Below are positions 3,785-39,088 of a stretch of 64,000 bases of DNA, one piece after another. The position numbers were made by a program, and so were the translations under genes. Each line of letters begins with the position of its first letter. Position 1 is the stretch's first letter. The notes under the pieces are model-generated. The model did no database searches. It saw only the letters and a program-made list of their open reading frames with translations, and was not told where the DNA came from. Origin of the DNA: Chloroflexota bacterium (GTDB lineage: Bacteria > Chloroflexota > Limnocylindria > P2-11E); the NCBI GenBank assembly GCA_021787445.1, contig JAJYLV010000004.1, positions 17,095-81,094 on the forward strand. Reading direction: 5' to 3'.

Positions 3785-4257
3785 AGGTCGCCGTCCCCGA
3801 GAGCTGTCATGCGGATGCCGCGCCCGTCGAGGTCGCGCGCGATCGCCTCCTCGGCGCCCGGCATGACGCCCGCGTCGTGTAGCTGCCTCAGCAGGACGGG
3901 ATGGGCTCCGCCGGGTCGCACCGCGCGCCATTCGACCGCCTCGCCGCCGATCCCGACGCGCGGAACGCCGATGACGAGCGCGCGGTACATGTGGACGCGC
4001 ATGCCTCTCGACGCAGCGGCGGCGTCGACGTCGTAGCGCCCGACGAGGCGGAGGTCGCGCGCCTCGAGACACGTCTCTTCGTGGAGCTCGCGGCGCGCGG
4101 CGTCCTCGAAGGACTCGCCGTCCTCGAGTCCGCCGCCCGGCAGGAGCCACTCGCCGGCGAATGGTCCCCCGCCCTGCCGCACCAGCAGGACGCGCCCGGC
4201 CGCGTCGAGGGTGAGCACGATGGCGCTCCGGCGGCGATCGCTCCGCTCGGCGGTCAC
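3781..4257 (-). CDS. NUDIX hydrolase
   Basis: Nudix box GEWLLPGGGLEDGESFEDAARRELHEETCL. GTG start overlaps the mutS2 stop (GTGA). Confidence 0.8.
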   Translation of the reverse strand: MTAERSDRRRSAIVLTLDAAGRVLLVRQGGGPFAGEWLLPGGGLEDGESFEDAARRELHEETCLEARDLRLVGRYDVDAAAASRGMRVHMYRALVIGVPRVGIGGEAVEWRAVRPGGAHPVLLRQLHDAGVMPGAEEAIARDLDGRGIRMTALGDGDL

Positions 4258-6578
4258 AGCGTCACGATGGTCGCGCCGTCGCCGCCCTCGTTCCGCCCGG
4301 CCGTCGCGACCTCGCGCGCGAGCGGATGCTGCGCGAGCGCCGTGCGGATCGCCGCGCGAAGCGCTCCCGTGCCTTTCCCGTGCACGATGCGCACGCGCTC
4401 GTAGCCGGCGACCGCGGCGTCGTTCAGGTACCGGTCGACGGCCGCGATCGCCTCCTCCGCGCGCGCGCCGCGGATGTCGAGCTGCAACGGCACCTGCGCG
4501 GCCGTCCCCTGCACGGTGGCGCGCGAGGAGCGGACCGGCGCGGCGTCCGGCACGGGAGCCTCGCGGAGCTCGCTCGCCGGCACGCGCAGCCGCAGCGCGC
4601 CGGCGGCGACCTCGGCGACCCCCTTTGCGTCCAGCGACAGGAGCGTCCCCGGCTCGCTCATGCCCCGGATGACCACGGGGGACCCGACGGCGATCGGCAC
4701 CGTCGCGGACGGCGGCGGCGCGGGCGCGACGGCGTCGCGCGCCGCCTCGGCCTCCGCGAGCGCCGCGCGCGCATCCTCGACGAGGTCGCGCCGCGACGCG
4801 CGGTCGCGCGCCTCCTCGGCTTGGCGGATCGCGCGCCGCGCCTGGAGGAGGAGGTCCTCCGCTTCGGTGCGTGCCCGGCGGAGGCGCTCGTGCGCCTCGC
4901 CGCGGATGCGATCGGCCTCCCTTCGCGCCCCCTCGAGCGCGCGCTCGGCCTCGCGGGCCGACAGCGTCGCGCCCTCGAGCCGCTCGGCGAGGTCGGTCCG
5001 CGCGCGCTCCGCCTCACGCAGCGTGCGCTCGAGCGAGCGGTGCAGCTCCGAGAGGTGCGCTTCCGCGCGCTCGAGGACCGACGGCGCTAGGCCGAGGCGC
5101 GAGGCGATCGCGAACGCGTTCGACGCTCCCGGGAGCCCGAGGTGGACCCGGTACGTCGGGCGCAGGGTGACCGGATCGAACTCGACGCTCGCGTTCATCA
5201 CGCCGCGCGTGTTGAGCGCGAACGCCTTGAGCTCCGGGTAGTGCGTCGTCGCGGCGACGAGCGTGCCCCGCTCGAGAAGCGTCTCGAGGACGGCCATCGC
5301 GAGCGCGGCGCCTTCGTCCGGGTCGGTCCCCGCGCCGATCTCGTCGAGCAGCGCGAGGTCTCCCCCGCCCGCCTCGGCGAGGGTGGCGACGACGTTCCGC
5401 AGGTGCGACGAGAACGTCGAGAGCGACTGCTGGATCGACTGCTCGTCGCCGATGTCCGCGAACACGCTGCGGACGACCGGGAGGGTCGTGCCCGGCGCGG
5501 CCGGCACGGGCAGCCCGCATGCCGCCATGAGCGCGAGCAGCCCGATCGTCCGCAGGGTCACCGTCTTACCGCCCGTATTCGGCCCGGTCACCACCAGGGC
5601 GCGCGTCTCGCCGCCCAACCGCACGTCGATCGGCACGACCGCGTCGCCGAGCTGTCGGACGAGCAGAGGGTGACGCGCGTGGATCAGATCGATGACGCCC
5701 TCCGCCGAAAGGACCGGACGCACGCACTCGAAGCTCTCCGCGAAGTGCGCCCGCGCGAGGACGAGGTCGAGCGCGGCGAGCGCCGCGAGCACGGCCTCGA
5801 GCTCGGTGGCGGCCGCTTCCACCTGTCGCGAGAGCCGCGCCAGGACGCGCTCGACCTCGGCCTTCTCAGCGAGCTCCGCCTCGCGGAGCGTGTTGTTCGC
5901 GTCGAGGATGTCGAGGGGCTCGACGAACACCGTCGCCCCGCTCGCGGAGCGGTCGTGCACGATCCCCTTCACGGCGCTCGCGTACTCGGCCTTGACGGGC
6001 ACGACGTATCGCCCGCCGCGCTGCGTGACGATCGGCTCCTGCAGCATCTTCGCGAGCGACGGCGAACGGAGGAGGCCGTCGACGCGCTGCTGGAGTCGCG
6101 CCAGCGCCGAGCGGAGCTCGGCGCGGGCGCTCGCGAGGGCGACGCTCGCGCGGTCGAGGACCTCCCCTTCGGGCGAGATGGCATGCTCGATCGCCTGCGC
6201 GGCCTCGGCCGGCGGCCGCGCGAAGCGAGCCCGCGCGGCGAGCGGAGGATACGTCCCGACCTGCCCGAACAGGGCCTCGGCGGCGCGGACGGTCGCGGCG
6301 ACCCCGTAGAGCTGCTCGGGATCGAGCACGCCGCCGAGGCGCGAGCGCCGCAGCGGCTCGCGGATGTCGCGCGCCCCGCGCAGCCCCGCCGACGGGACAG
6401 CGCGCATGAGGTCGCGCGCGGCGGCCGTCTCGTCCTGGAGGCGCTCGGCGTCGCCCAGGTCGGTGACCGGCTCCATGGCTTCGGCGAGCTCGCGCCCGGG
6501 CTGGAACGAGGTGCTCTCGGCGACGATCTCGCGCACCGCCGTCAGCTCGAGGACGCGCAGGGTGCGCTCGCTGGTCAT
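4254..6578 (-). CDS. mutS2: endonuclease MutS2 (MutS domain plus C-terminal Smr domain)
   Basis: 774 aa. Walker A GPNTGGKT, MutS ATPase core and a C-terminal Smr domain (LDIRGARAEEA...VRIVHGKGTGALR). Confidence 0.9.
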   Translation of the reverse strand: MTSERTLRVLELTAVREIVAESTSFQPGRELAEAMEPVTDLGDAERLQDETAAARDLMRAVPSAGLRGARDIREPLRRSRLGGVLDPEQLYGVAATVRAAEALFGQVGTYPPLAARARFARPPAEAAQAIEHAISPEGEVLDRASVALASARAELRSALARLQQRVDGLLRSPSLAKMLQEPIVTQRGGRYVVPVKAEYASAVKGIVHDRSASGATVFVEPLDILDANNTLREAELAEKAEVERVLARLSRQVEAAATELEAVLAALAALDLVLARAHFAESFECVRPVLSAEGVIDLIHARHPLLVRQLGDAVVPIDVRLGGETRALVVTGPNTGGKTVTLRTIGLLALMAACGLPVPAAPGTTLPVVRSVFADIGDEQSIQQSLSTFSSHLRNVVATLAEAGGGDLALLDEIGAGTDPDEGAALAMAVLETLLERGTLVAATTHYPELKAFALNTRGVMNASVEFDPVTLRPTYRVHLGLPGASNAFAIASRLGLAPSVLERAEAHLSELHRSLERTLREAERARTDLAERLEGATLSAREAERALEGARREADRIRGEAHERLRRARTEAEDLLLQARRAIRQAEEARDRASRRDLVEDARAALAEAEAARDAVAPAPPPSATVPIAVGSPVVIRGMSEPGTLLSLDAKGVAEVAAGALRLRVPASELREAPVPDAAPVRSSRATVQGTAAQVPLQLDIRGARAEEAIAAVDRYLNDAAVAGYERVRIVHGKGTGALRAAIRTALAQHPLAREVATAGRNEGGDGATIVTL

Positions 6579-16431: not shown

Positions 16432-17574
16432 CTAGCGCCGCCTGAGCCGCTCCTCGAGGCGCGCTCGCACGTCCGGCCACTCGCGATCGACGATCGAGTA
16501 GTAGCAGGCATCGCGGACGGTGCCGTTCGGCTGGATCCGCTCGTTCCGAATGACCCCGTCGAGCGTCGCCCCGATACGCTGGATGGCGCGCCGCGACCGC
16601 TCGTTCCGCACGTCGGTCTTCAGCCAGACACGGATCGCGCCGAGGTCGAACGCGTTCCGCAGCTGGAGGTACTTAGCCTCGGTATTCGCGGCCGTCCGGC
16701 GTGCCGATGCCGTCAGCATCGTCCAGCCGATCTCGACGGACCGATCCGGCCGGTCGATCGCGCCGTATCGCGTCGTGCCGATGACGGCGCCGTCGCTCGC
16801 GCGCCGCGTGATCCACGGCATGTGCTCGCCGCGTATCTGGAGGTCCAGTGCCGAGCGGACGTAGCGCTCGATGTCGGCGACCGACGCCGGCGGTTCCGTG
16901 CCGAGCCACGTCCAGATGCCGGGCTCGCGGACCGCCTCGTAGAGCGCCGCCGCGTGCTCCATGCGCAGGGGCTCGAGGACGACGTGCTCGCCGCGGAGGA
17001 CGATCGGGCGCGGATCGAACGCCGGGCGGACGCGGCCCGCGATGTACGCCATGCGCACGTCGTCCACGAAGATCCCGCGGTCGGTGAGGACCGCGTCGCG
17101 CTCGATGCCCTCGACCTCGAACCCGCACGCCTTGTACGAGGCGATGGCGCGGTCGTTGAAGGAGAGGACGCTCAGCGAGATGCGATGCGCGCCGAGGTCC
17201 TCGGTGAGGTGCCGGACGAGCGTGCCGAGCGCGTCGCGGCCCAGTCCGCGGGACCACAGCGCCGGCTCGCCGATCCCGATGCCGATCTCGGCGCTTCGCG
17301 GCTTGGGCCGCCAGTCGCGGTAGTTGGCGGATCCGACGGCCCGCCCCTCGTGCTCGATGACGAACAGCCGGCCGTCGGGCTCGACGAAACGCGCCATGAA
17401 GGCGACGGCCGCTTCCTGGTCCGGGAAGCGCCCGGGCGAGCGTCCCCACTGCATCCAGGCGAACTCCGGCACGGCGGCCCAGCGCACGAAGTCCGTCGCG
17501 TCGGCGTCACGCGCGGGGCGCAGCCTCACCCGCTCGCCGGCGAGGACGGGCTGCGGCAGCGTGCCCGCGCTCAC
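16432..17574 (-). CDS. tandem GNAT N-acetyltransferase (two RimL/RimJ-like GNAT domains)
   Basis: Two GNAT folds with acetyl-CoA-binding motifs (RGLGRDALG..., and the second domain). GTG start overlaps the thrS stop (GTGA). The upstream 120-aa extension is not supported. Confidence 0.75.
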   Translation of the reverse strand: MSAGTLPQPVLAGERVRLRPARDADATDFVRWAAVPEFAWMQWGRSPGRFPDQEAAVAFMARFVEPDGRLFVIEHEGRAVGSANYRDWRPKPRSAEIGIGIGEPALWSRGLGRDALGTLVRHLTEDLGAHRISLSVLSFNDRAIASYKACGFEVEGIERDAVLTDRGIFVDDVRMAYIAGRVRPAFDPRPIVLRGEHVVLEPLRMEHAAALYEAVREPGIWTWLGTEPPASVADIERYVRSALDLQIRGEHMPWITRRASDGAVIGTTRYGAIDRPDRSVEIGWTMLTASARRTAANTEAKYLQLRNAFDLGAIRVWLKTDVRNERSRRAIQRIGATLDGVIRNERIQPNGTVRDACYYSIVDREWPDVRARLEERLRRR

Positions 17575-19415
17575 CCGACGGCGTCCCCGACGCTCGGCTC
17601 CGCGGGCGAGAAGTCCGACGGCAGCTGCTGCGTGTCGCGCTCGCGCACGACGCGGTCGAGGAACGCGTCGAGCGCCACTCCGCGCTCCTCCTCGCCCTTC
17701 CCCGCCCCGCGCGGACGGACCGACACGGTCCCGCTCGCCGCCTCCCTGCCGCCGACGACGAGGATGTAGCTGGCGCGGCGGTGCTGCGCTTCGCGGATGC
17801 GCTCGCGCATGTCCGCGAGGGGCGGCTCGTCCAGATGGACCCGCAGCGCGCGCTCCTCGAGGCGCGCGGTCACCGAGCGCGCGTACTCCAGCGCGTCCTC
17901 GCGGATGGGCACTACGGCGACCTGCTCCCAGTTGAGCCACAGCGGGAAGCTCCCCGCGTAGTGCTCGATGAGGCCCCCGACGAAGCGCTCGAGGCTACCG
18001 AAGAGCACACGGTGGATCATGACGGCACGCTCCCGCTCGCCCTTCTCGTTGACGAAGGTGACGTCGAAGCGCTCCGGCAGGTTGAGGTCGATCTGGATCG
18101 TCGGTCCCTGCCACTCCCGGCCGATGGCGTCCCGCACCTTGATGTCGATCTTCGGCGCGTAGAAGACGCCGCCGCCCTCGTCGATCTTGTACGGGACCTC
18201 GCGCACACCGAGCGCCTCGCGCAGCGCGCCTTCGGCGCGGTCCCACATCTCGTCGGTACCGAGGCGCCGCTCCGGCCGCGTCGAGAGGTAGATGACCGGG
18301 TCGCTGTACCCGAAGAGCCGCATGAACTCCATGGCGAGGTCGAACACCTTGCCGATCTCGCCCTGCGCCTGGGCCCAGGTGCAGAAGATGTGGCTGTCGT
18401 CCTGGGTGAATCCCCGGACGCGCTGCATCCCGTGCAGCGTGCCGCCGCGCTCGTAGCGGTAGACGGTCCCGAGCTCGCCGATCCGCAGCGGCAGCTCGCG
18501 GTAGGAGCGGATGCGCGACTGGAACACCTTGATGTGCCCGGGGCAGTTCATCGGCTTGATCCAGAAGCGCTGCGTCCCCTCGTCGAGCAGGAGGGGGCCG
18601 TACATGTTCTCGCCGTACTTCTCGAGGTGTCCCGACCGCTCGTAGGTGCGCTCGTGGGCCATGTGCGGCGTGTACACGAGCGTGTACCCCCGCGCGCGGT
18701 GGACGCGCCGCCACCACGACTCCAGCTCCTCGCGGACGACCGAGAGACGCGGCAGCCACAGGACCAGCCCGCTCCCGAGCTCGTCGTCGATCCGGAACAG
18801 CTCGAGGTCGCGGCCGAGGACGCGGTGGTCGCGGCGCTCGATCTCCTTCAAGTGGTCGATGTAGGCGTCGAGCTCCTTCTGCGTCGGCCACACCGTCCCG
18901 TAGATCCGCGTGAGCTGAGGGCGGGTCTCGTCGCCGCGCCAGTAGGCGCCGGCGATGGACATGAGCTTGAACGCCGTGATGCGTCCCGTCCGCTCGACGT
19001 GGGGACCCTTGCAGAGGTCGACGAAGCCGCCGTGCCGGTAGATGCTGACGGTCCCGTCGTCGGCGCCTTCGGCGCGGTCGAAGCTCCGGATGAGGTCGAC
19101 CTTGAAGTCCTGGCCGTTCTCCGCGAAGAGCCGGAGCGCCTCGTCGCGCGGCATCTCGCTGCGCTCGAACGGCACGTCCGCCGCCGCGACCTCGCGCATC
19201 CGCGCCTCGATCCGCCCGAGATCCTCGGGCACGATCGGGCGCGGGGTCTCCAGGTCGTAGTAGAAGCCGTCCTTGATCGCGGGCCCGATCCCGAGCTTCG
19301 TACCGGGGAACAGATCGAGAACGGCGCCCGCCATGAGGTGCGCCGTGGAGTGCCGGAGGGGCTGGAGCGGATCCTCCCCGCCGTGTCCGGCCCTGCGTCC
19401 GAGCTGCTTCGCCAT
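17571..19415 (-). CDS. thrS: threonyl-tRNA synthetase
   Basis: 614 aa with class II core motifs and an HxxxH zinc site (HSTAHLMA). Anticodon-binding C-terminus. Synteny with infC-rpmI-rplT-pheST. Confidence 0.9.
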   Translation of the reverse strand: MAKQLGRRAGHGGEDPLQPLRHSTAHLMAGAVLDLFPGTKLGIGPAIKDGFYYDLETPRPIVPEDLGRIEARMREVAAADVPFERSEMPRDEALRLFAENGQDFKVDLIRSFDRAEGADDGTVSIYRHGGFVDLCKGPHVERTGRITAFKLMSIAGAYWRGDETRPQLTRIYGTVWPTQKELDAYIDHLKEIERRDHRVLGRDLELFRIDDELGSGLVLWLPRLSVVREELESWWRRVHRARGYTLVYTPHMAHERTYERSGHLEKYGENMYGPLLLDEGTQRFWIKPMNCPGHIKVFQSRIRSYRELPLRIGELGTVYRYERGGTLHGMQRVRGFTQDDSHIFCTWAQAQGEIGKVFDLAMEFMRLFGYSDPVIYLSTRPERRLGTDEMWDRAEGALREALGVREVPYKIDEGGGVFYAPKIDIKVRDAIGREWQGPTIQIDLNLPERFDVTFVNEKGERERAVMIHRVLFGSLERFVGGLIEHYAGSFPLWLNWEQVAVVPIREDALEYARSVTARLEERALRVHLDEPPLADMRERIREAQHRRASYILVVGGREAASGTVSVRPRGAGKGEEERGVALDAFLDRVVRERDTQQLPSDFSPAEPSVGDAVG

Positions 19416-19640
19416 GTCGCCCCCCTATGACAACAACGACCGCCCGTCTACTGGGACGAGGCGGTCGCTCGCGGTTCCACCCAGCTTCCGCCGGCCGACC
19501 GGCGGCGCTTCACTCCGGCTGTACGGGGCCGACCCTCGGCGCTCGGCGGTGGTCGCCCGTCGCCCGCTGCCCACCGGCTCTCACCCTCCCGGCTCGCTAG
19601 GGGGTGCTCGGCGGGGGCGCTGTCCGCGTCGTCGCGCCCG
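19416..19640 (-). promoter_or_regulatory. T-box riboswitch-like leader of thrS (specifier ACC)
   Basis: The minus-strand RNA contains AAGCUGGGUGGAACCGCG (matches the T-box core AAUUAGGGUGGNACCGCG), a candidate specifier ACCA (GCGACCACCGCC), AG-box/GNUGA-like elements (GUGAGAG, GGAGUGA) and a terminator hairpin CGACCGCC-N14-GGCGGUCG followed by UUGUUGU, 20 nt before the SD GGGGGG and the ATG. Confidence 0.55.
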
Positions 19641-19652
19641 CTGAGGATACCC

Positions 19653-20291
19653 CTACGTGAGGAGCACGCCGCTGAAGATGACGATCACGGCGACCATGTT
19701 CGTCCACTCGACGACGCCGGTCGCGCCGGTGAACGCCGCCGTCCCTCCCGCGGCCGCGATGAACACGCCCACCGCGATGATCACGTTCGCGACCGCGCGG
19801 CGTCCCTGGTGCCGCTTGCTCACGAACACCCACGCCGACCACAGCGCGCCGCCGATGAGGATGAGGCTCCCGATCCCGCTGCCGATGCCCGCGAGGATCC
19901 GCGGGAGCGGCACGGCGTCGAAGCCCTTCCCGGTGTCGGCGGCCGTCGCGAGATCGACCGGGCTCGCGGCGACGGCCGCGACCCCGACGACGGTGAAGGC
20001 GACGAGGACCCAGGTCGACCATCTCGCGACGCGCGGCGGGGTGAGCAGATAGATCGTGCCGAGGGCGAGCCAGGCCACGTTGAGGATGGCCCCGAAGAGG
20101 TAGAAGACCTTGTAGTCGAGCTCGGTGACGCCGGCGATCTGCCGTACGAGCCCCGCGAGCGATGCGAGGGCGAACATGCCGAACCCGATCGCCCAGGCCC
20201 CGAGGTAGGGACGCCGGCGGCTAGACCAGCGCACCGCGAGGTAGACGCAGAAGACGGCGCTGACGACGAACGAGAGCGTGGCGGCGGTCAT
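19653..20291 (-). CDS. hypothetical integral membrane protein (6 predicted TM helices)
   Basis: 212 aa, strongly hydrophobic with regularly spaced helices. No recognisable motif. Confidence 0.6.
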   Translation of the reverse strand: MTAATLSFVVSAVFCVYLAVRWSSRRRPYLGAWAIGFGMFALASLAGLVRQIAGVTELDYKVFYLFGAILNVAWLALGTIYLLTPPRVARWSTWVLVAFTVVGVAAVAASPVDLATAADTGKGFDAVPLPRILAGIGSGIGSLILIGGALWSAWVFVSKRHQGRRAVANVIIAVGVFIAAAGGTAAFTGATGVVEWTNMVAVIVIFSGVLLT

Positions 20292-21410: not shown

Positions 21411-21601
21411 GTAGCCCCTCCTTGTCGTGAGGGGATGCTAGCGTGCCGCTTCGGCGAAAGTGTGCGTTCCGCGACGTCCGGTCTTGAGCTCCTGGACGCG
21501 GAGGCGCCGGAGGTGCAGCGGCGACGCTTGCGGCTCGTGGGTCTCGCGTGGCGCATCGCGGACATCGCAGAGGTGACGCCGCTGCCGCGGATCTCAAGCC
21601 G

Positions 21602-21675
21602 TGGGCTGAAGAGGGCTCGAACCTCTGACCTCTTGCATGTCAAGCAAGTGCTCTGACCAGCTGAGCTACCAGCCC
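21602..21675 (-). tRNA. tRNA-Val (anticodon GAC)
   Basis: Cloverleaf: acceptor GGGCUGG/UCAGCCC, D arm GCUC...GAGC, anticodon arm CUUGC-UUGACAU-GCAAG, T arm AGAGG-UUCGAGC-CCUCU, discriminator A. No encoded CCA. Confidence 0.85.
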
Positions 21676-38880: not shown

Positions 38881-38953
38881 GGGGCTGTAGCTCAGAGGAC
38901 AGAGCAGGTCCGTCCTAAGGACTTGGTCGTGGGTTCGACTCCCACCAGCCCCT
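38881..38953 (+). tRNA. tRNA-Arg (anticodon CCU)
   Basis: Acceptor GGGGCUG/CAGCCCC, D arm GCUC-AGAGGACA-GAGC, anticodon arm GGUCC-GUCCUAA-GGACU, T arm GUGGG-UUCGACU-CCCAC. Discriminator U (atypical). Confidence 0.75.
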
Positions 38954-39015
38954 CCGCCGGACCGGAGATCGCTGGTCGCCGTGCCCTTACGCTGCCCCTT
39001 ACACTGAACCGTCAG

Positions 39016-39088
39016 CGGGGTGTAGCGCAGTTGGTAGCGCGCAGCGTTCGGGACGCTGAGGTCGCCGGATCGTGCCCGGCCACCCCGA
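39016..39088 (+). tRNA. tRNA-Pro (anticodon CGG) with an atypical T-loop (A54/U58 swap)
   Basis: Acceptor CGGGGUG/CACCCCG, D arm GCGC-AGUUGGUA-GCGC, anticodon arm CAGCG-UUCGGGA-CGCUG, T arm GCCGG-AUCGUGC-CCGGC, discriminator A. Confidence 0.65.

What the first reader, a model, noticed from the sequence alone, without database searches (positions are those of the whole stretch)
19416..19640. T-box-like leader with threonine (ACC) specifier and intrinsic terminator upstream of thrS
The 225-nt leader of thrS (minus strand) contains the sequence AAGCUGGGUGGAACCGCG, which matches the conserved T-box motif (AAUUAGGGUGGNACCGCG) at the GGGUGG and ACCGCG cores. A GC-rich stem I region carries GUGAGAG (AG-box-like), GGAGUGA (GNUGA-like) and a candidate specifier ACC followed by A. 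Immediately 3' of the T-box lies a terminator hairpin (CGACCGCC - 14 nt - GGCGGUCG) followed by UUGUUGU, 20 nt before the GGGGGG SD and ATG. The 5' strand of the terminator is contiguous with the T-box, as in classical antiterminator/terminator switching. thrS T-boxes are classical in Firmicutes but not generally expected in very high-GC lineages.
Basis: seen in the sequence. Interest (0 to 1): 0.6.

Follow-up and report, generated by a model that had tools for sequence, protein, structure and literature searches.

The report
Threonine T-box riboswitch before thrS
The leader of the threonyl-tRNA synthetase gene is a genuine tRNA-sensing T-box riboswitch for threonine in a high-GC Chloroflexota bacterium: a well-known kind of regulator in a trimmed, GC-rich form that the standard Rfam model scores below threshold.

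Summary
Window 19435-19636 (minus strand) is a threonine-specific T-box leader upstream of thrS. Rfam RF00230 gives only a partial hit (28.3 bits; gathering score 93) covering Stem III and the antiterminator.

Fourteen related genomes (Chloroflexota, Ca. Limnocylindria) and about 120 soil-metagenome copies carry the same leader, nearly always directly before thrS.

Comparison with these shows every canonical element in order: K-turn, specifier loop with ACC-A, AG bulge, distal loop, IIA/B pseudoknot, purine string, Stem III, T-box bulge UGGAACC, antiterminator, and an overlapping terminator. Stem I, the pseudoknot and helix A1 all covary strongly. A Stem I model built without the window finds it at 61.8 bits as the only strong hit in 64 kb.

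What differs:
- There is no Stem II hairpin.
- The window's U-tract is weak (UUGUUGU).
- Some relatives replace the terminator with a Shine-Dalgarno sequestrator.
- T-boxes are already known in Chloroflexi, so their presence here is not surprising.
- No tRNA-Thr gene was available, so the UGGA/discriminator pairing could not be tested.

Verdict: an ordinary new member of a known family, of modest interest.

The parts
19644..19649 (-). Putative -10 promoter hexamer TATCCT, just after the stop codon (19653-19655) of the upstream ORF
   Evidence: A TAnnnT hexamer lies 14-15 nt upstream of the K-turn GCGA in about 90 of 98 distinct upstream sequences, and there is no conserved -35. The consensus promoter scan found nothing. 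This part is inference.
19540..19636 (-). Stem I (tRNA anticodon- and elbow-binding domain). Base helix CGC 19636-19634 / GCG 19542-19540. K-turn GACGA 19633-19629 opposite GA 19544-19543. Helix GCGG 19627-19624 / CCGC 19549-19546.
   Evidence: On the MAFFT alignment A2, 80.7% of cells are paired against about 40% when slid, 14 pairs change on both sides, and 0 of 500 shuffles reach this. On the larger alignment A4, 83.7% are paired against 29-47%, with 21 of 25 pairs changing on both sides. Model R1, built without the window, hits here at 61.8 bits, E 3.8e-11.
19550..19553 (-). Specifier codon ACC (Thr, 19553-19551) followed by the conserved purine A (19550), on the 3' side of the specifier loop directly 5' of helix CCGC
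   Evidence: The position is identical to GAA-A-ACC-A-UCCC in the Rfam-aligned L016 T-box. ACC is kept in all 14 genome-derived relatives, which were found through the protein; the following base is A in 13 and G in L012.
19594..19598 (-). AG bulge AGCGA
   Evidence: It is AGCGA in 52 and AGAGA in 19 of 72 distinct leaders. It stays unpaired in the single-sequence folds. It aligns to AGAGA of the Rfam consensus.
19573..19593 (-). Distal hairpin: GCCGG / CCGGU with the 11-nt distal loop GAGGGUGAGAG (19588-19578), matching the GGUUGGUG-type loop
   Evidence: The helix covaries, e.g. CCCC/GGGG in L001. The loop resembles the Rfam consensus GgUUGGUGaaA. A weak RF00230 fragment (model positions 39-75) falls here.
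19515..19535 (-). 21-nt IIA/B pseudoknot: IIA GGG/CCC, IIB loop (U)CGGC with GCCG(G), and the F-box-like CCGUACA. Only 4 nt (CCGA) separate it from Stem I, so there is no Stem II hairpin.
   Evidence: IIB pairs covary: pair 3 is GC 57, CG 7, AU 2; pair 4 is GC 25, CG 16. Paired cells number 174 of 201 against a shuffle mean of 137, and 0 of 2000 shuffles reach this. The linker is 1-4 nt in 67 of 67 sequences.
19486..19510 (-). Purine string AAGCG (19510-19506), Stem III CCGCCGG-UCGG-CCGGCGG (19505-19488), then AA (19487-19486)
   Evidence: RF00230 aligns this stretch as Stem III. [quoted passage not shown] AA is present in 72 of 72 leaders. The stem sequence differs between relatives while pairing is kept.
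19451..19484 (-). Antiterminator: A1 CUGGG/CCCAG, 7-nt T-box bulge UGGAACC (19479-19473), A2 GCGAG/CUCGU, apical loop CGACCGC
   Evidence: RF00230 partial hit at 28.3 bits. The structure evaluates to -10.0 kcal/mol. The A1 outer pairs covary: UC/GA in 34 and CU/AG in 33 leaders. UGGA abuts A1, as required (PMC7583486).
19427..19469 (-). Terminator hairpin (19469-19435; core CGACCGCC-U-CGUC / GACG-GGCGGUCG, loop CCAGUA) plus the U-rich tail UUGUUGUCAU (19436-19427). Its 5' arm is the antiterminator loop plus the A2 3' strand, so the two folds exclude each other.
   Evidence: The fold is -25.3 kcal/mol. The terminator scan flags the site: 1 found against 0.1 expected. About 53 of 69 distinct relatives have the same hairpin followed by a run of 4 or more U.
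19413..19426 (-). Shine-Dalgarno AGGGGGG (19426-19420) and start codon ATG (19415-19413) of thrS
   Evidence: Read directly from the sequence. The N-terminus MAKQLGRR...LRHSTAHLMAGAV aligns with the relatives' MAKTERK...LRHSTAHVMAGAV.
17571..19415 (-). Regulated gene thrS (614 aa; editing domain, class II core and anticodon-binding domain; no TGS domain)
   Evidence: TIGR00418 at 612.8 bits. Pfam tRNA_SAD, tRNA-synt_2b and HGTP_anticodon.
16432..17570 (-). Tandem-GNAT acetyltransferase gene directly downstream of thrS, probably co-transcribed. Its exact start was not determined.
   Evidence: Pfam Acetyltransf_3 and Acetyltransf_1. The gene is conserved immediately after thrS in 57 related loci.

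Best explanation
This is a threonine-specific T-box riboswitch controlling thrS, and probably the tandem-GNAT gene behind it.

Proposed mechanism. The transcript starts a few bases before Stem I. Stem I binds tRNA-Thr(GGU): the specifier ACC pairs with the anticodon, and the AG-bulge/distal-loop platform stacks on the tRNA elbow. The K-turn and the IIA/B pseudoknot orient the 3' discriminator domain, which consists of the purine string, Stem III and the antiterminator.

If the bound tRNA is uncharged, its 3' NCCA end pairs with UGGA in the T-box bulge and stabilises the weak antiterminator (-10 kcal/mol). RNA polymerase then reads through into thrS. If the tRNA is charged, the stronger terminator hairpin (-25 kcal/mol) forms instead and transcription stops before the gene. 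That hairpin uses the antiterminator's apical loop and 3' strand.

What is shown here: the anatomy, its conservation, the covariation, the link to thrS, and the mutual exclusivity of the two folds. What is inferred from the family's established mechanism: tRNA binding, charge sensing, and termination as opposed to translational control in this particular genome.
For: - RF00230 partial hit on Stem III plus antiterminator: 28.3 bits, E 1.4e-4.
- The element order matches the Rfam-aligned Chloroflexia thrS T-box L016 position by position.
- ACC-A and GGGUGGAACC are conserved in all 14 relatives found through the protein.
- Stem I covaries.
- Model R1, built without the window, hits it at 61.8 bits as the only strong hit in 64 kb. 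R1 also hits the Stem I of Rfam-positive L016 at 45.1 bits.
- The IIB, A1 and Stem III helices covary, and the RRRxG...AA flanks are present.
- Of the metagenome copies with enough downstream sequence to judge, all but two are followed by a recognisable thrS. The two are L134, a chance match, and L144, a frame-broken thrS.
- Antiterminator -10.0 and terminator -25.3 kcal/mol lie within the range TBDB reports, -7.4 +/- 4.2 and -19.5 +/- 7.9 (bioRxiv 10.1101/2020.06.17.157016).
- Most relatives have a clean U-tract after the same hairpin.
- The third specifier base is C, and UGGN abuts helix A1, as in all known T-boxes (PMC7583486).
Against: - The full RF00230 model scores 28.3 bits, far below its gathering score of 93, and none of the 14 close relatives passes either.
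- There is no Stem II hairpin.
- The canonical AGUA/GAA S-turn of the specifier loop is not evident; the sequences are ACAGCG and GCG-ACC-A.
- The window's U-tract (UUGUUGU) is interrupted, unlike most relatives, so termination efficiency is uncertain.
- The MFE fold of the whole leader is no more stable than shuffles (z = 0.44).
- The cognate tRNA-Thr and its discriminator base could not be examined.
- There is no experimental evidence.
Confidence: 0.9

Rival explanations
1. The RNA is the same T-box sensor, but in this genome the output is translational or mixed rather than transcription termination. The hairpin with its eroded U-tract would not terminate efficiently, and the switch would instead change ribosome access to the nearby AGGGGGG/AUG.
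For: The U-tract is interrupted (UUGUUGUCAU), and the window belongs to a minority of about 7 of 69 distinct leaders without a U run of 4 or more. About 9 of those leaders, including genome-derived L005, L009, L010, L011 and L013, clearly use an SD sequestrator (CUCGUCC paired with GGACGAG next to the AUG), which shows that the platform type switches within this clade. The hairpin ends only about 10 nt before the SD.
Against: In the window the hairpin's 3' arm does not include the SD, and no conserved anti-SD was found. The hairpin is of the same type as in the 53 or so relatives with a clear U-tract. The terminator scan flags the site.
Confidence: 0.15
2. The leader is a decaying or constitutive relic of a T-box. 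It keeps the sequence motifs but no longer switches, because of the weak U-tract, the missing Stem II and the missing S-turn.
For: It scores below the Rfam threshold, the U-tract is weak, and the whole-leader fold is not unusually stable.
Against: All functional elements are intact and conserved across 72 distinct leader cores, with compensatory changes in every helix. The specifier and UGGA are invariant in the relatives found through the protein. Purifying selection of this kind argues for function.
Confidence: 0.04
3. The leader is an E. coli-type thrS operator: a mimic of the tRNA-Thr anticodon arm that ThrRS protein binds to repress its own translation.
For: The gene context is the same (a thrS leader), and such operators are known (PMC9976931).
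Against: The leader presents a codon (ACC), not an anticodon-like loop. It contains the T-box core, the UGGA bulge, the K-turn, the AG bulge and the distal loop, and a competing terminator. No operator-like pair of hairpins abuts the SD.
Confidence: 0.01

Closest known systems
Canonical transcriptional T-box leaders (Rfam RF00230), e.g. Bacillus subtilis thrS/thrZ and the Chloroflexia thrS leader L016 found here
   Same: Order and sequence of the K-turn, specifier loop (ACC-A), AG bulge, distal loop, IIA/B pseudoknot with F-box-like CCGUACA, RRRxG-Stem III-AA, T-box bulge UGGAACC, helices A1 and A2, and the overlapping terminator. The regulated gene is the cognate aminoacyl-tRNA synthetase.
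   Different: There is no Stem II hairpin; only 1-4 nt separate Stem I from IIA. The specifier-loop S-turn sequence is not conserved. Stem I is about 81% GC. The full model reaches only 28.3 bits against a gathering score of 93. The U-tract is interrupted.
glyQS-type T-boxes (Stem II domain absent)
   Same: A long Stem I with the elbow-binding platform, and no Stem II S-turn to buttress the codon-anticodon helix. Four relatives (L010, L011, L013, L137) lack IIA/B as well, which gives a glyQS-like layout.
   Different: The window and most relatives keep the IIA/B pseudoknot. The specifier is ACC (two G-C pairs and one A-U pair) rather than GGC. According to the review PMC7583486, the all-G-C glycine codon-anticodon duplex likely makes Stem II unnecessary.
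Actinobacterial ileS translational T-boxes (Mycobacterium, Nocardia)
   Same: A high-GC host. About 9 of the 69 distinct leaders examined use the same logic of an SD-sequestering helix that competes with the antisequestrator. They also have a compact 21-nt IIA/B pseudoknot.
   Different: The ileS T-boxes have a truncated Stem I without the distal platform and depend on a Stem II S-turn (PMC7583486). Here the reverse holds: a full-length Stem I and no Stem II. The window itself has a terminator-type platform.
Thr T-boxes of another lineage found in the metagenome scan (L085, L087; thrS 38-42% identical; the L087 enzyme is 634 aa against 614 here)
   Same: The identical specifier block ACC-A-CCGCC-GA-GCG, IIA/B with CCGUUAC, the UGGA bulge, and a terminator with a U-tract.
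   Different: They keep a short 6-bp Stem II hairpin (CGGGGG-CGAA-CCCCCG) between Stem I and IIA/B. The window's clade has lost it.

Membership tests
T-box leader (Rfam RF00230) | Score at or above the family's gathering threshold (93 bits) with the full covariance model | tested here: not met
   No hit at gathering. The best hit is 28.3 bits over model positions 155-216, with a 9.7-bit fragment over positions 39-75. None of the 14 close relatives passes, while L016 does at 95.8 bits. The shortfall is explained by the missing Stem II and the GC-rich divergent arms, not by any missing core element.
T-box leader (Rfam RF00230) | Conserved T-box sequence forming a 7-nt bulge, with UGGN at its 5' edge next to helix A1, between helices A1 and A2 | tested here: met
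   CUGGG-UGGAACC-GCGAG...CUCGU-CCCAG at 19484-19451. It is aligned by RF00230. A1 covaries: UC/GA in 34 and CU/AG in 33 leaders. The criterion is from PMC7583486.
T-box leader (Rfam RF00230) | Stem I with a K-turn (GA motif) at its base and a specifier loop that presents a codon followed by a purine, matching the regulated gene | tested here: met
   The K-turn is GACGA opposite GA. ACC-A lies at 19553-19550 directly above helix GCGG/CCGC, and the gene is thrS. Covariation; positional match to L016.
T-box leader (Rfam RF00230) | Distal Stem I platform (AG bulge plus distal loop) for the tRNA elbow | tested here: met
   AGCGA at 19598-19594 and the loop GAGGGUGAGAG at 19588-19578 are conserved in sequence and position. 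This is a sequence-level match only; the interdigitated T-loop fold itself was not tested.
T-box leader (Rfam RF00230) | Stem II with an S-turn, followed by the IIA/B pseudoknot (present in most non-glycine T-boxes) | tested here: inconclusive
   The IIA/B pseudoknot is present and covaries. The Stem II hairpin is absent, with a 1-4 nt linker in 67 of 67 sequences. [quoted passage not shown]
T-box leader (Rfam RF00230) | Stem III flanked by 5'-RRRxG and AA-3' as part of the discriminator domain | tested here: met
   AAGCG, then CCGCCGG-UCGG-CCGGCGG, then AA at 19510-19486. AA is present in 72 of 72 leaders. RF00230 aligns the stem.
T-box leader (Rfam RF00230) | A terminator or sequestrator that is mutually exclusive with the antiterminator | tested here: met
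   The terminator (19469-19435, -25.3 kcal/mol) uses the antiterminator's loop and A2 3' strand; the antiterminator is -10.0 kcal/mol. Relatives have either the same hairpin with a U-tract or an SD sequestrator.
T-box leader (Rfam RF00230) | The variable base of UGGN is complementary to the discriminator base of the cognate tRNA, and the specifier is complementary to its anticodon | not testable with these tools
   No tRNA-Thr gene is in the window (Val, Arg, Pro, Pro) or on any of the 200 fetched loci. Indirect evidence only: nine thrS-associated T-box cores from other phyla also read UGGA. The tRNA-Thr discriminator varies between taxa (PMC9976931).
T-box leader (Rfam RF00230) | tRNA-dependent, charge-sensitive regulation of the downstream gene | not testable with these tools
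   This requires in vitro transcription or in vivo reporter assays.

The most novel reading that the evidence does not exclude
The Limnocylindria thrS leaders form a distinct, so far uncatalogued architectural subclass of T-box. It has a full-length Stem I with the elbow platform, a stand-alone IIA/B pseudoknot and no Stem II S-turn. It is invisible to RF00230 at its threshold, and so probably also to databases built on that model.

If so, three things follow. The pseudoknot has a role independent of Stem II, for instance positioning the Stem III purine string. The 'C rule' at the third specifier position persists without the Stem II contacts thought to impose it. And orthologous leaders switch between transcriptional and translational output within one bacterial class.
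Probability: 0.3. Interest if true: 0.45.

Novelty: new member of a known kind. Interest (0 to 1): 0.25.

Why it matters
It assigns a regulator to an essential gene in Ca. Limnocylindria, an abundant soil and freshwater class known almost only from metagenome-assembled genomes.

It also shows that the standard Rfam T-box model misses a whole clade of GC-rich leaders that lack Stem II, so T-box counts in high-GC Chloroflexota are probably underestimates.

For riboswitch specialists the clade offers a natural series of orthologous leaders: with and without the IIA/B pseudoknot, always without Stem II, and with either a terminator or an SD sequestrator. That series could be used to test what the pseudoknot does on its own and how expression platforms are exchanged.

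None of this changes the understanding of how T-boxes work.

Tried and rejected
- **Rfam at the gathering threshold**, on the window and on 18 related loci. No T-box was called for the window or any close relative. I rejected this as a refutation, because the permissive scan, the element-by-element anatomy and the covariation all agree.
- **Whole-leader MFE folding.** It was uninformative (z = 0.44), because GC-rich sequence folds strongly whatever its order.
- **Motif search with mismatches for more T-boxes in the window.** Matches were at chance level, and the permissive Rfam scan of all 64 kb found no second T-box.
- **Search for a tRNA-Thr gene** in the window and in all 200 fetched loci. 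None was found, so the discriminator test stays open.
- **Automatic MFE-based terminator classification.** It failed because the U-tract pairs with upstream purines in the MFE fold. I replaced it with a simple U-run / SD-complement rule plus inspection.
- **L134 from the metagenome scan.** This is a chance match inside coding sequence and was discarded.
- **Literature.** The Vitreschak 2008 and Gutierrez-Preciado 2009 reviews are not held in the library. I therefore could not check whether a layout with the pseudoknot but no Stem II has already been tabulated. A full-text search found no explicit description.
- **The E. coli-type ThrRS operator reading** was considered and rejected on anatomy.
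Full report
**What is at the coordinates.** The downstream ORF 17571-19415 is threonyl-tRNA synthetase (TIGR00418, 612.8 bits). It has an editing domain, a class II core and an anticodon-binding domain, but no TGS domain. The 13-nt T-box core GGGUGGAACCGCG (19482-19470) is the only exact match in the 64-kb window. Matches with two mismatches are at chance level: 21 found, 25 expected.

**The direct Rfam test.** At Rfam's gathering thresholds the window yields only four tRNAs and no T-box. A permissive scan of 19350-19750 gives a partial RF00230 hit at 19452-19514(-). It scores 28.3 bits, E 1.4e-4, and covers model positions 155-216 of 219, that is Stem III plus the antiterminator. A 9.7-bit fragment over model positions 39-75 falls at 19570-19604. 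On the whole window the main hit has E = 0.023. So the family model sees the 3' discriminator domain but not the complete leader, and the score is far below the gathering value of 93.

**Relatives.** A protein-based scan of one genome per species returned 15 close ThrRS relatives, 70-83% identical. Most are labelled Chloroflexota or Ca. Limnocylindria; three carry other MAG labels. I take the window to come from that class (taxonomy).

Fourteen of the 15 retain sequence upstream of thrS, and all 14 carry the same leader. Thirteen have GGGUGGAACCGCG and L001 has GGGUGGAACCACG. All also carry three other conserved blocks: CGCGACGACGCGGACAGCGC, AGCGAGCCGGGAnGGUGnGAGCCGG and GAGACCACCGCCGAGCG. Most also carry GGCCCCGUACAGCC; L010, L011 and L013 lack it. 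None of them reaches Rfam's threshold. The more distant Chloroflexia locus L016 (54% ThrRS identity) has a full RF00230 hit of 95.8 bits directly upstream of its thrS.

A two-anchor DNA pattern retrieved 120 further copies from mainly soil metagenomes. Of those with enough downstream sequence to judge, all but two are followed by a recognisable thrS. The two are L134, a chance match in coding sequence, and L144, a frame-broken thrS. Because that pattern fixed the specifier block and the T-box core, I use the metagenome set only for helices outside the pattern. Conservation of ACC and UGGA rests on the 14 loci found through the protein.

**Anatomy.** The Rfam alignment of L016 gives the canonical order, and the window can be read against it position by position.

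| Element | Sequence | Window coordinates (minus strand) |
|---|---|---|
| Base helix | CGC / GCG | 19636-19634 / 19542-19540 |
| K-turn | GACGA opposite GA | 19633-19629 / 19544-19543 |
| Helix above K-turn | GCGG / CCGC | 19627-19624 / 19549-19546 |
| Specifier + purine | ACC + A | 19553-19551, 19550 |
| AG bulge | AGCGA | 19598-19594 |
| Distal hairpin | GCCGG / CCGGU | 19593-19589 / 19577-19573 |
| Distal loop (11 nt) | GAGGGUGAGAG | 19588-19578 |
| IIA/B pseudoknot | GGG-UCGGC-CCC-GUACA-GCCGG | 19535-19515 |
| Purine string | AAGCG | 19510-19506 |
| Stem III | CCGCCGG-UCGG-CCGGCGG | 19505-19488 |
| AA flank | AA | 19487-19486 |
| Antiterminator | CUGGG-UGGAACC-GCGAG-CGACCGC-CUCGU-CCCAG | 19484-19451 |

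The specifier context is exactly parallel to GAA-A-ACC-A-UCCC-C-GA-GC in L016. The distal loop compares with GGUUGGUGCGAG in L016. The pseudoknot is reached after only four nucleotides (CCGA) from the end of Stem I. Its 21-nt length and CCGUACA segment match the compact pseudoknot and F-box (CCGUCA) described for ileS T-boxes (PMC7583486). The purine string, Stem III and AA reproduce the 5'-RRRxG-Stem III-AA-3' discriminator motif from the same review. [quoted passage not shown]

GUGAGAG is part of the distal loop, and GGAGUGA is the junction between the IIB strand and the purine string.

**Covariation.**
- Seven of the 15 relatives' Stem I segments fold unaided into the canonical architecture.
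- On a plain MAFFT alignment of 14 genome-derived Stem I sequences, the structure has 80.7% paired cells against about 40% when partners are slid by 1-3 columns. Fourteen pairs change on both sides, and 0 of 500 shuffles reach the observed values.
- I built a covariance model of Stem I from 32 diverse relatives, leaving the window out. With filters off it finds the window's Stem I (19540-19638) at 61.8 bits, E 3.8e-11, full length. The next best hit in 64 kb scores 20.1 bits.
- The same model recognises the Stem I of the Rfam-positive L016 leader at 45.1 bits. This ties the clade's Stem I to the canonical family.
- On the resulting alignment of 77 distinct sequences, 83.7% of cells pair against 29-47% when slid. 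Twenty-one of 25 pairs change on both sides, and 0 of 500 shuffles reach this. This alignment is fitted to the model, so the MFE folds and the MAFFT-based count, neither fitted to the model, carry the weight.
- The pseudoknot helix IIB covaries. Pair 3 is GC 57, CG 7, AU 2. Pair 4 is GC 25, CG 16. Paired cells number 174 of 201 against a shuffle mean of 137, and 0 of 2000 shuffles reach this.
- The outer pairs of A1 covary (UC/GA in 34, CU/AG in 33). The AA after Stem III is invariant in 72 of 72 leaders.
- The linker between Stem I and IIA is 1-4 nt in all 67 parsed leaders, so a Stem II hairpin is absent throughout the clade.
- Two Thr T-boxes from another lineage in the same scan (L085, L087) share the specifier block but keep a short 6-bp Stem II hairpin.
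- Four relatives (L010, L011, L013, L137) lack IIA/B as well.

**The switch.** The antiterminator evaluates to -10.0 kcal/mol. The competing hairpin spans 19469-19435, with core CGACCGCC-U-CGUC, loop CCAGUA, then GACG-GGCGGUCG, and folds at -25.3 kcal/mol. Its 5' arm consists of the antiterminator's apical loop and the 3' strand of A2, and its loop contains the 3' strand of A1. The two folds therefore cannot coexist. The energies fall in the ranges reported for catalogued T-boxes, -7.4 +/- 4.2 and -19.5 +/- 7.9 kcal/mol (bioRxiv 10.1101/2020.06.17.157016). The simple terminator scan flags the site: 1 found against 0.1 expected.

The tail UUGUUGUCAU is an interrupted U-tract. A census of 69 distinct leaders, by a rule-based count refined by reading the sequences, gives:

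| Platform type | Approx. count |
|---|---|
| Same hairpin followed by a run of ≥4 U | 53 |
| SD sequestrator (CUCGUCC paired with GGACGAG overlapping GGAGGA next to the start codon) | 9 |
| Hairpin with an interrupted U-tract | 7 |

The window falls in the last group, together with the similarly GC-rich L153 (Stem I 81% GC). In the window the SD (AGGGGGG, 19426-19420) lies outside the hairpin. I therefore favour transcription attenuation for this genome, at about 0.75 given that it is a T-box. Translational or mixed control is the main alternative.

**Transcript start.** A TAnnnT hexamer lies 14-15 nt upstream of the K-turn in about 90 of 98 distinct upstream sequences; in the window it is TATCCT at 19649-19644. 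There is no conserved -35, and the consensus promoter scan found nothing. This suggests a dedicated promoter that starts the RNA at the foot of Stem I, but it is inference. The genes upstream of the leader are not syntenic among relatives. A tandem-GNAT gene follows thrS in 57 related loci, so the leader travels with thrS and probably controls a thrS-GNAT operon.

**What could not be tested.** It needs a tRNA-Thr gene, and none is present in the window (tRNA-Val, Arg, Pro, Pro) or on any of the 200 fetched loci. The discriminator of tRNA-Thr is not a strong identity element outside Haloferax volcanii and yeast (PMC9976931), and I take it to vary between taxa, so it cannot be assumed. The only indirect support is that nine thrS-associated T-box cores from other phyla among the fetched loci also read UGGA.

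**Comparison with what is known.** T-boxes are documented in Chloroflexi, Actinobacteria and Deinococcus-Thermus as well as Firmicutes (PMC2494555, PMC3766115; bioRxiv 10.1101/2020.06.17.157016). thrS is one of the most consistently T-box-regulated synthetase genes in Firmicutes (PMC2494555).

The element works like a canonical transcriptional T-box and meets every sequence-level and structural criterion I could test, with two exceptions: the Rfam gathering score and the Stem II hairpin. The family tolerates variation in that domain. The Stem II region spans about 10-200 nt, and glycine T-boxes lack it entirely (PMC7583486).

The particular combination seen here is a long Stem I with the elbow platform, the pseudoknot retained and Stem II lost. 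It is the reverse of the actinobacterial ileS layout, and I did not find it explicitly described. However, the two most relevant comparative papers are not in the library. I therefore classify it as a new member of a known kind, with a modest chance (about 0.3) that it deserves to be called a distinct structural subclass.

**Verdict.** The finding is ordinary in kind. Its modest practical value is as an example of T-boxes that the standard model misses, and as a natural series for studying the pseudoknot and the exchange of expression platforms. Interest 0.25.

Noticed in passing
window 16432-17570 (-): A gene with tandem GNAT acetyltransferase domains directly follows thrS. It is conserved in that position in 57 related loci, so it is probably co-transcribed under the Thr T-box. 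Its substrate is unknown.
   Followed up: partly
L149 3522-5230 (+): One soil-metagenome contig carries two ACC-specifier T-box leaders 1.5 kb apart. The first precedes a 405-aa MFS transporter ORF (3813-5030) and the second precedes thrS. This may be a threonine-responsive transporter. No obvious terminator follows the first copy.
   Followed up: partly
L005, L009, L010, L011, L013 (leaders upstream of thrS): Orthologous leaders in the same bacterial class replace the terminator with a Shine-Dalgarno sequestrator (CUCGUCC/GGACGAG next to the AUG). L010, L011, L013 and L137 also lack the IIA/B pseudoknot and carry large insertions before Stem III.
   Followed up: partly
L001 2900-3000 (+): The closest genome relative has a tandem duplication of about 40 nt covering the terminator's 3' arm and U-tract (CGAAGAGGCUUUUU...ACGAGUAG, twice) between the T-box and thrS.
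   Followed up: no
window 21601-21675 (-): A tRNA-Val(GAC) gene lies about 2 kb upstream of thrS. The same tRNA is found 1.5-2.5 kb upstream of thrS in other Chloroflexota and in loci labelled Actinomycetota, which suggests an old syntenic neighbourhood.
   Followed up: no
window 17571-19415 (-): The ThrRS is a short form (614 aa) without the N-terminal TGS domain. Whether the genome also has a second, full-length thrS cannot be told from the window.
   Followed up: no
window 19653-20291 (-): The 212-aa ORF ending 4 nt before the putative -10 box has no Pfam or NCBIfam match. It is not syntenic with thrS in relatives.
   Followed up: no
window 38924-39041 (+): A weak sub-threshold YrlA (Y RNA-like) match, 25.8 bits against a gathering score of 69, spans the gap between tRNA-Arg(CCU) and tRNA-Pro(CGG). 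It is most likely an artefact of tRNA-like sequence.
   Followed up: no
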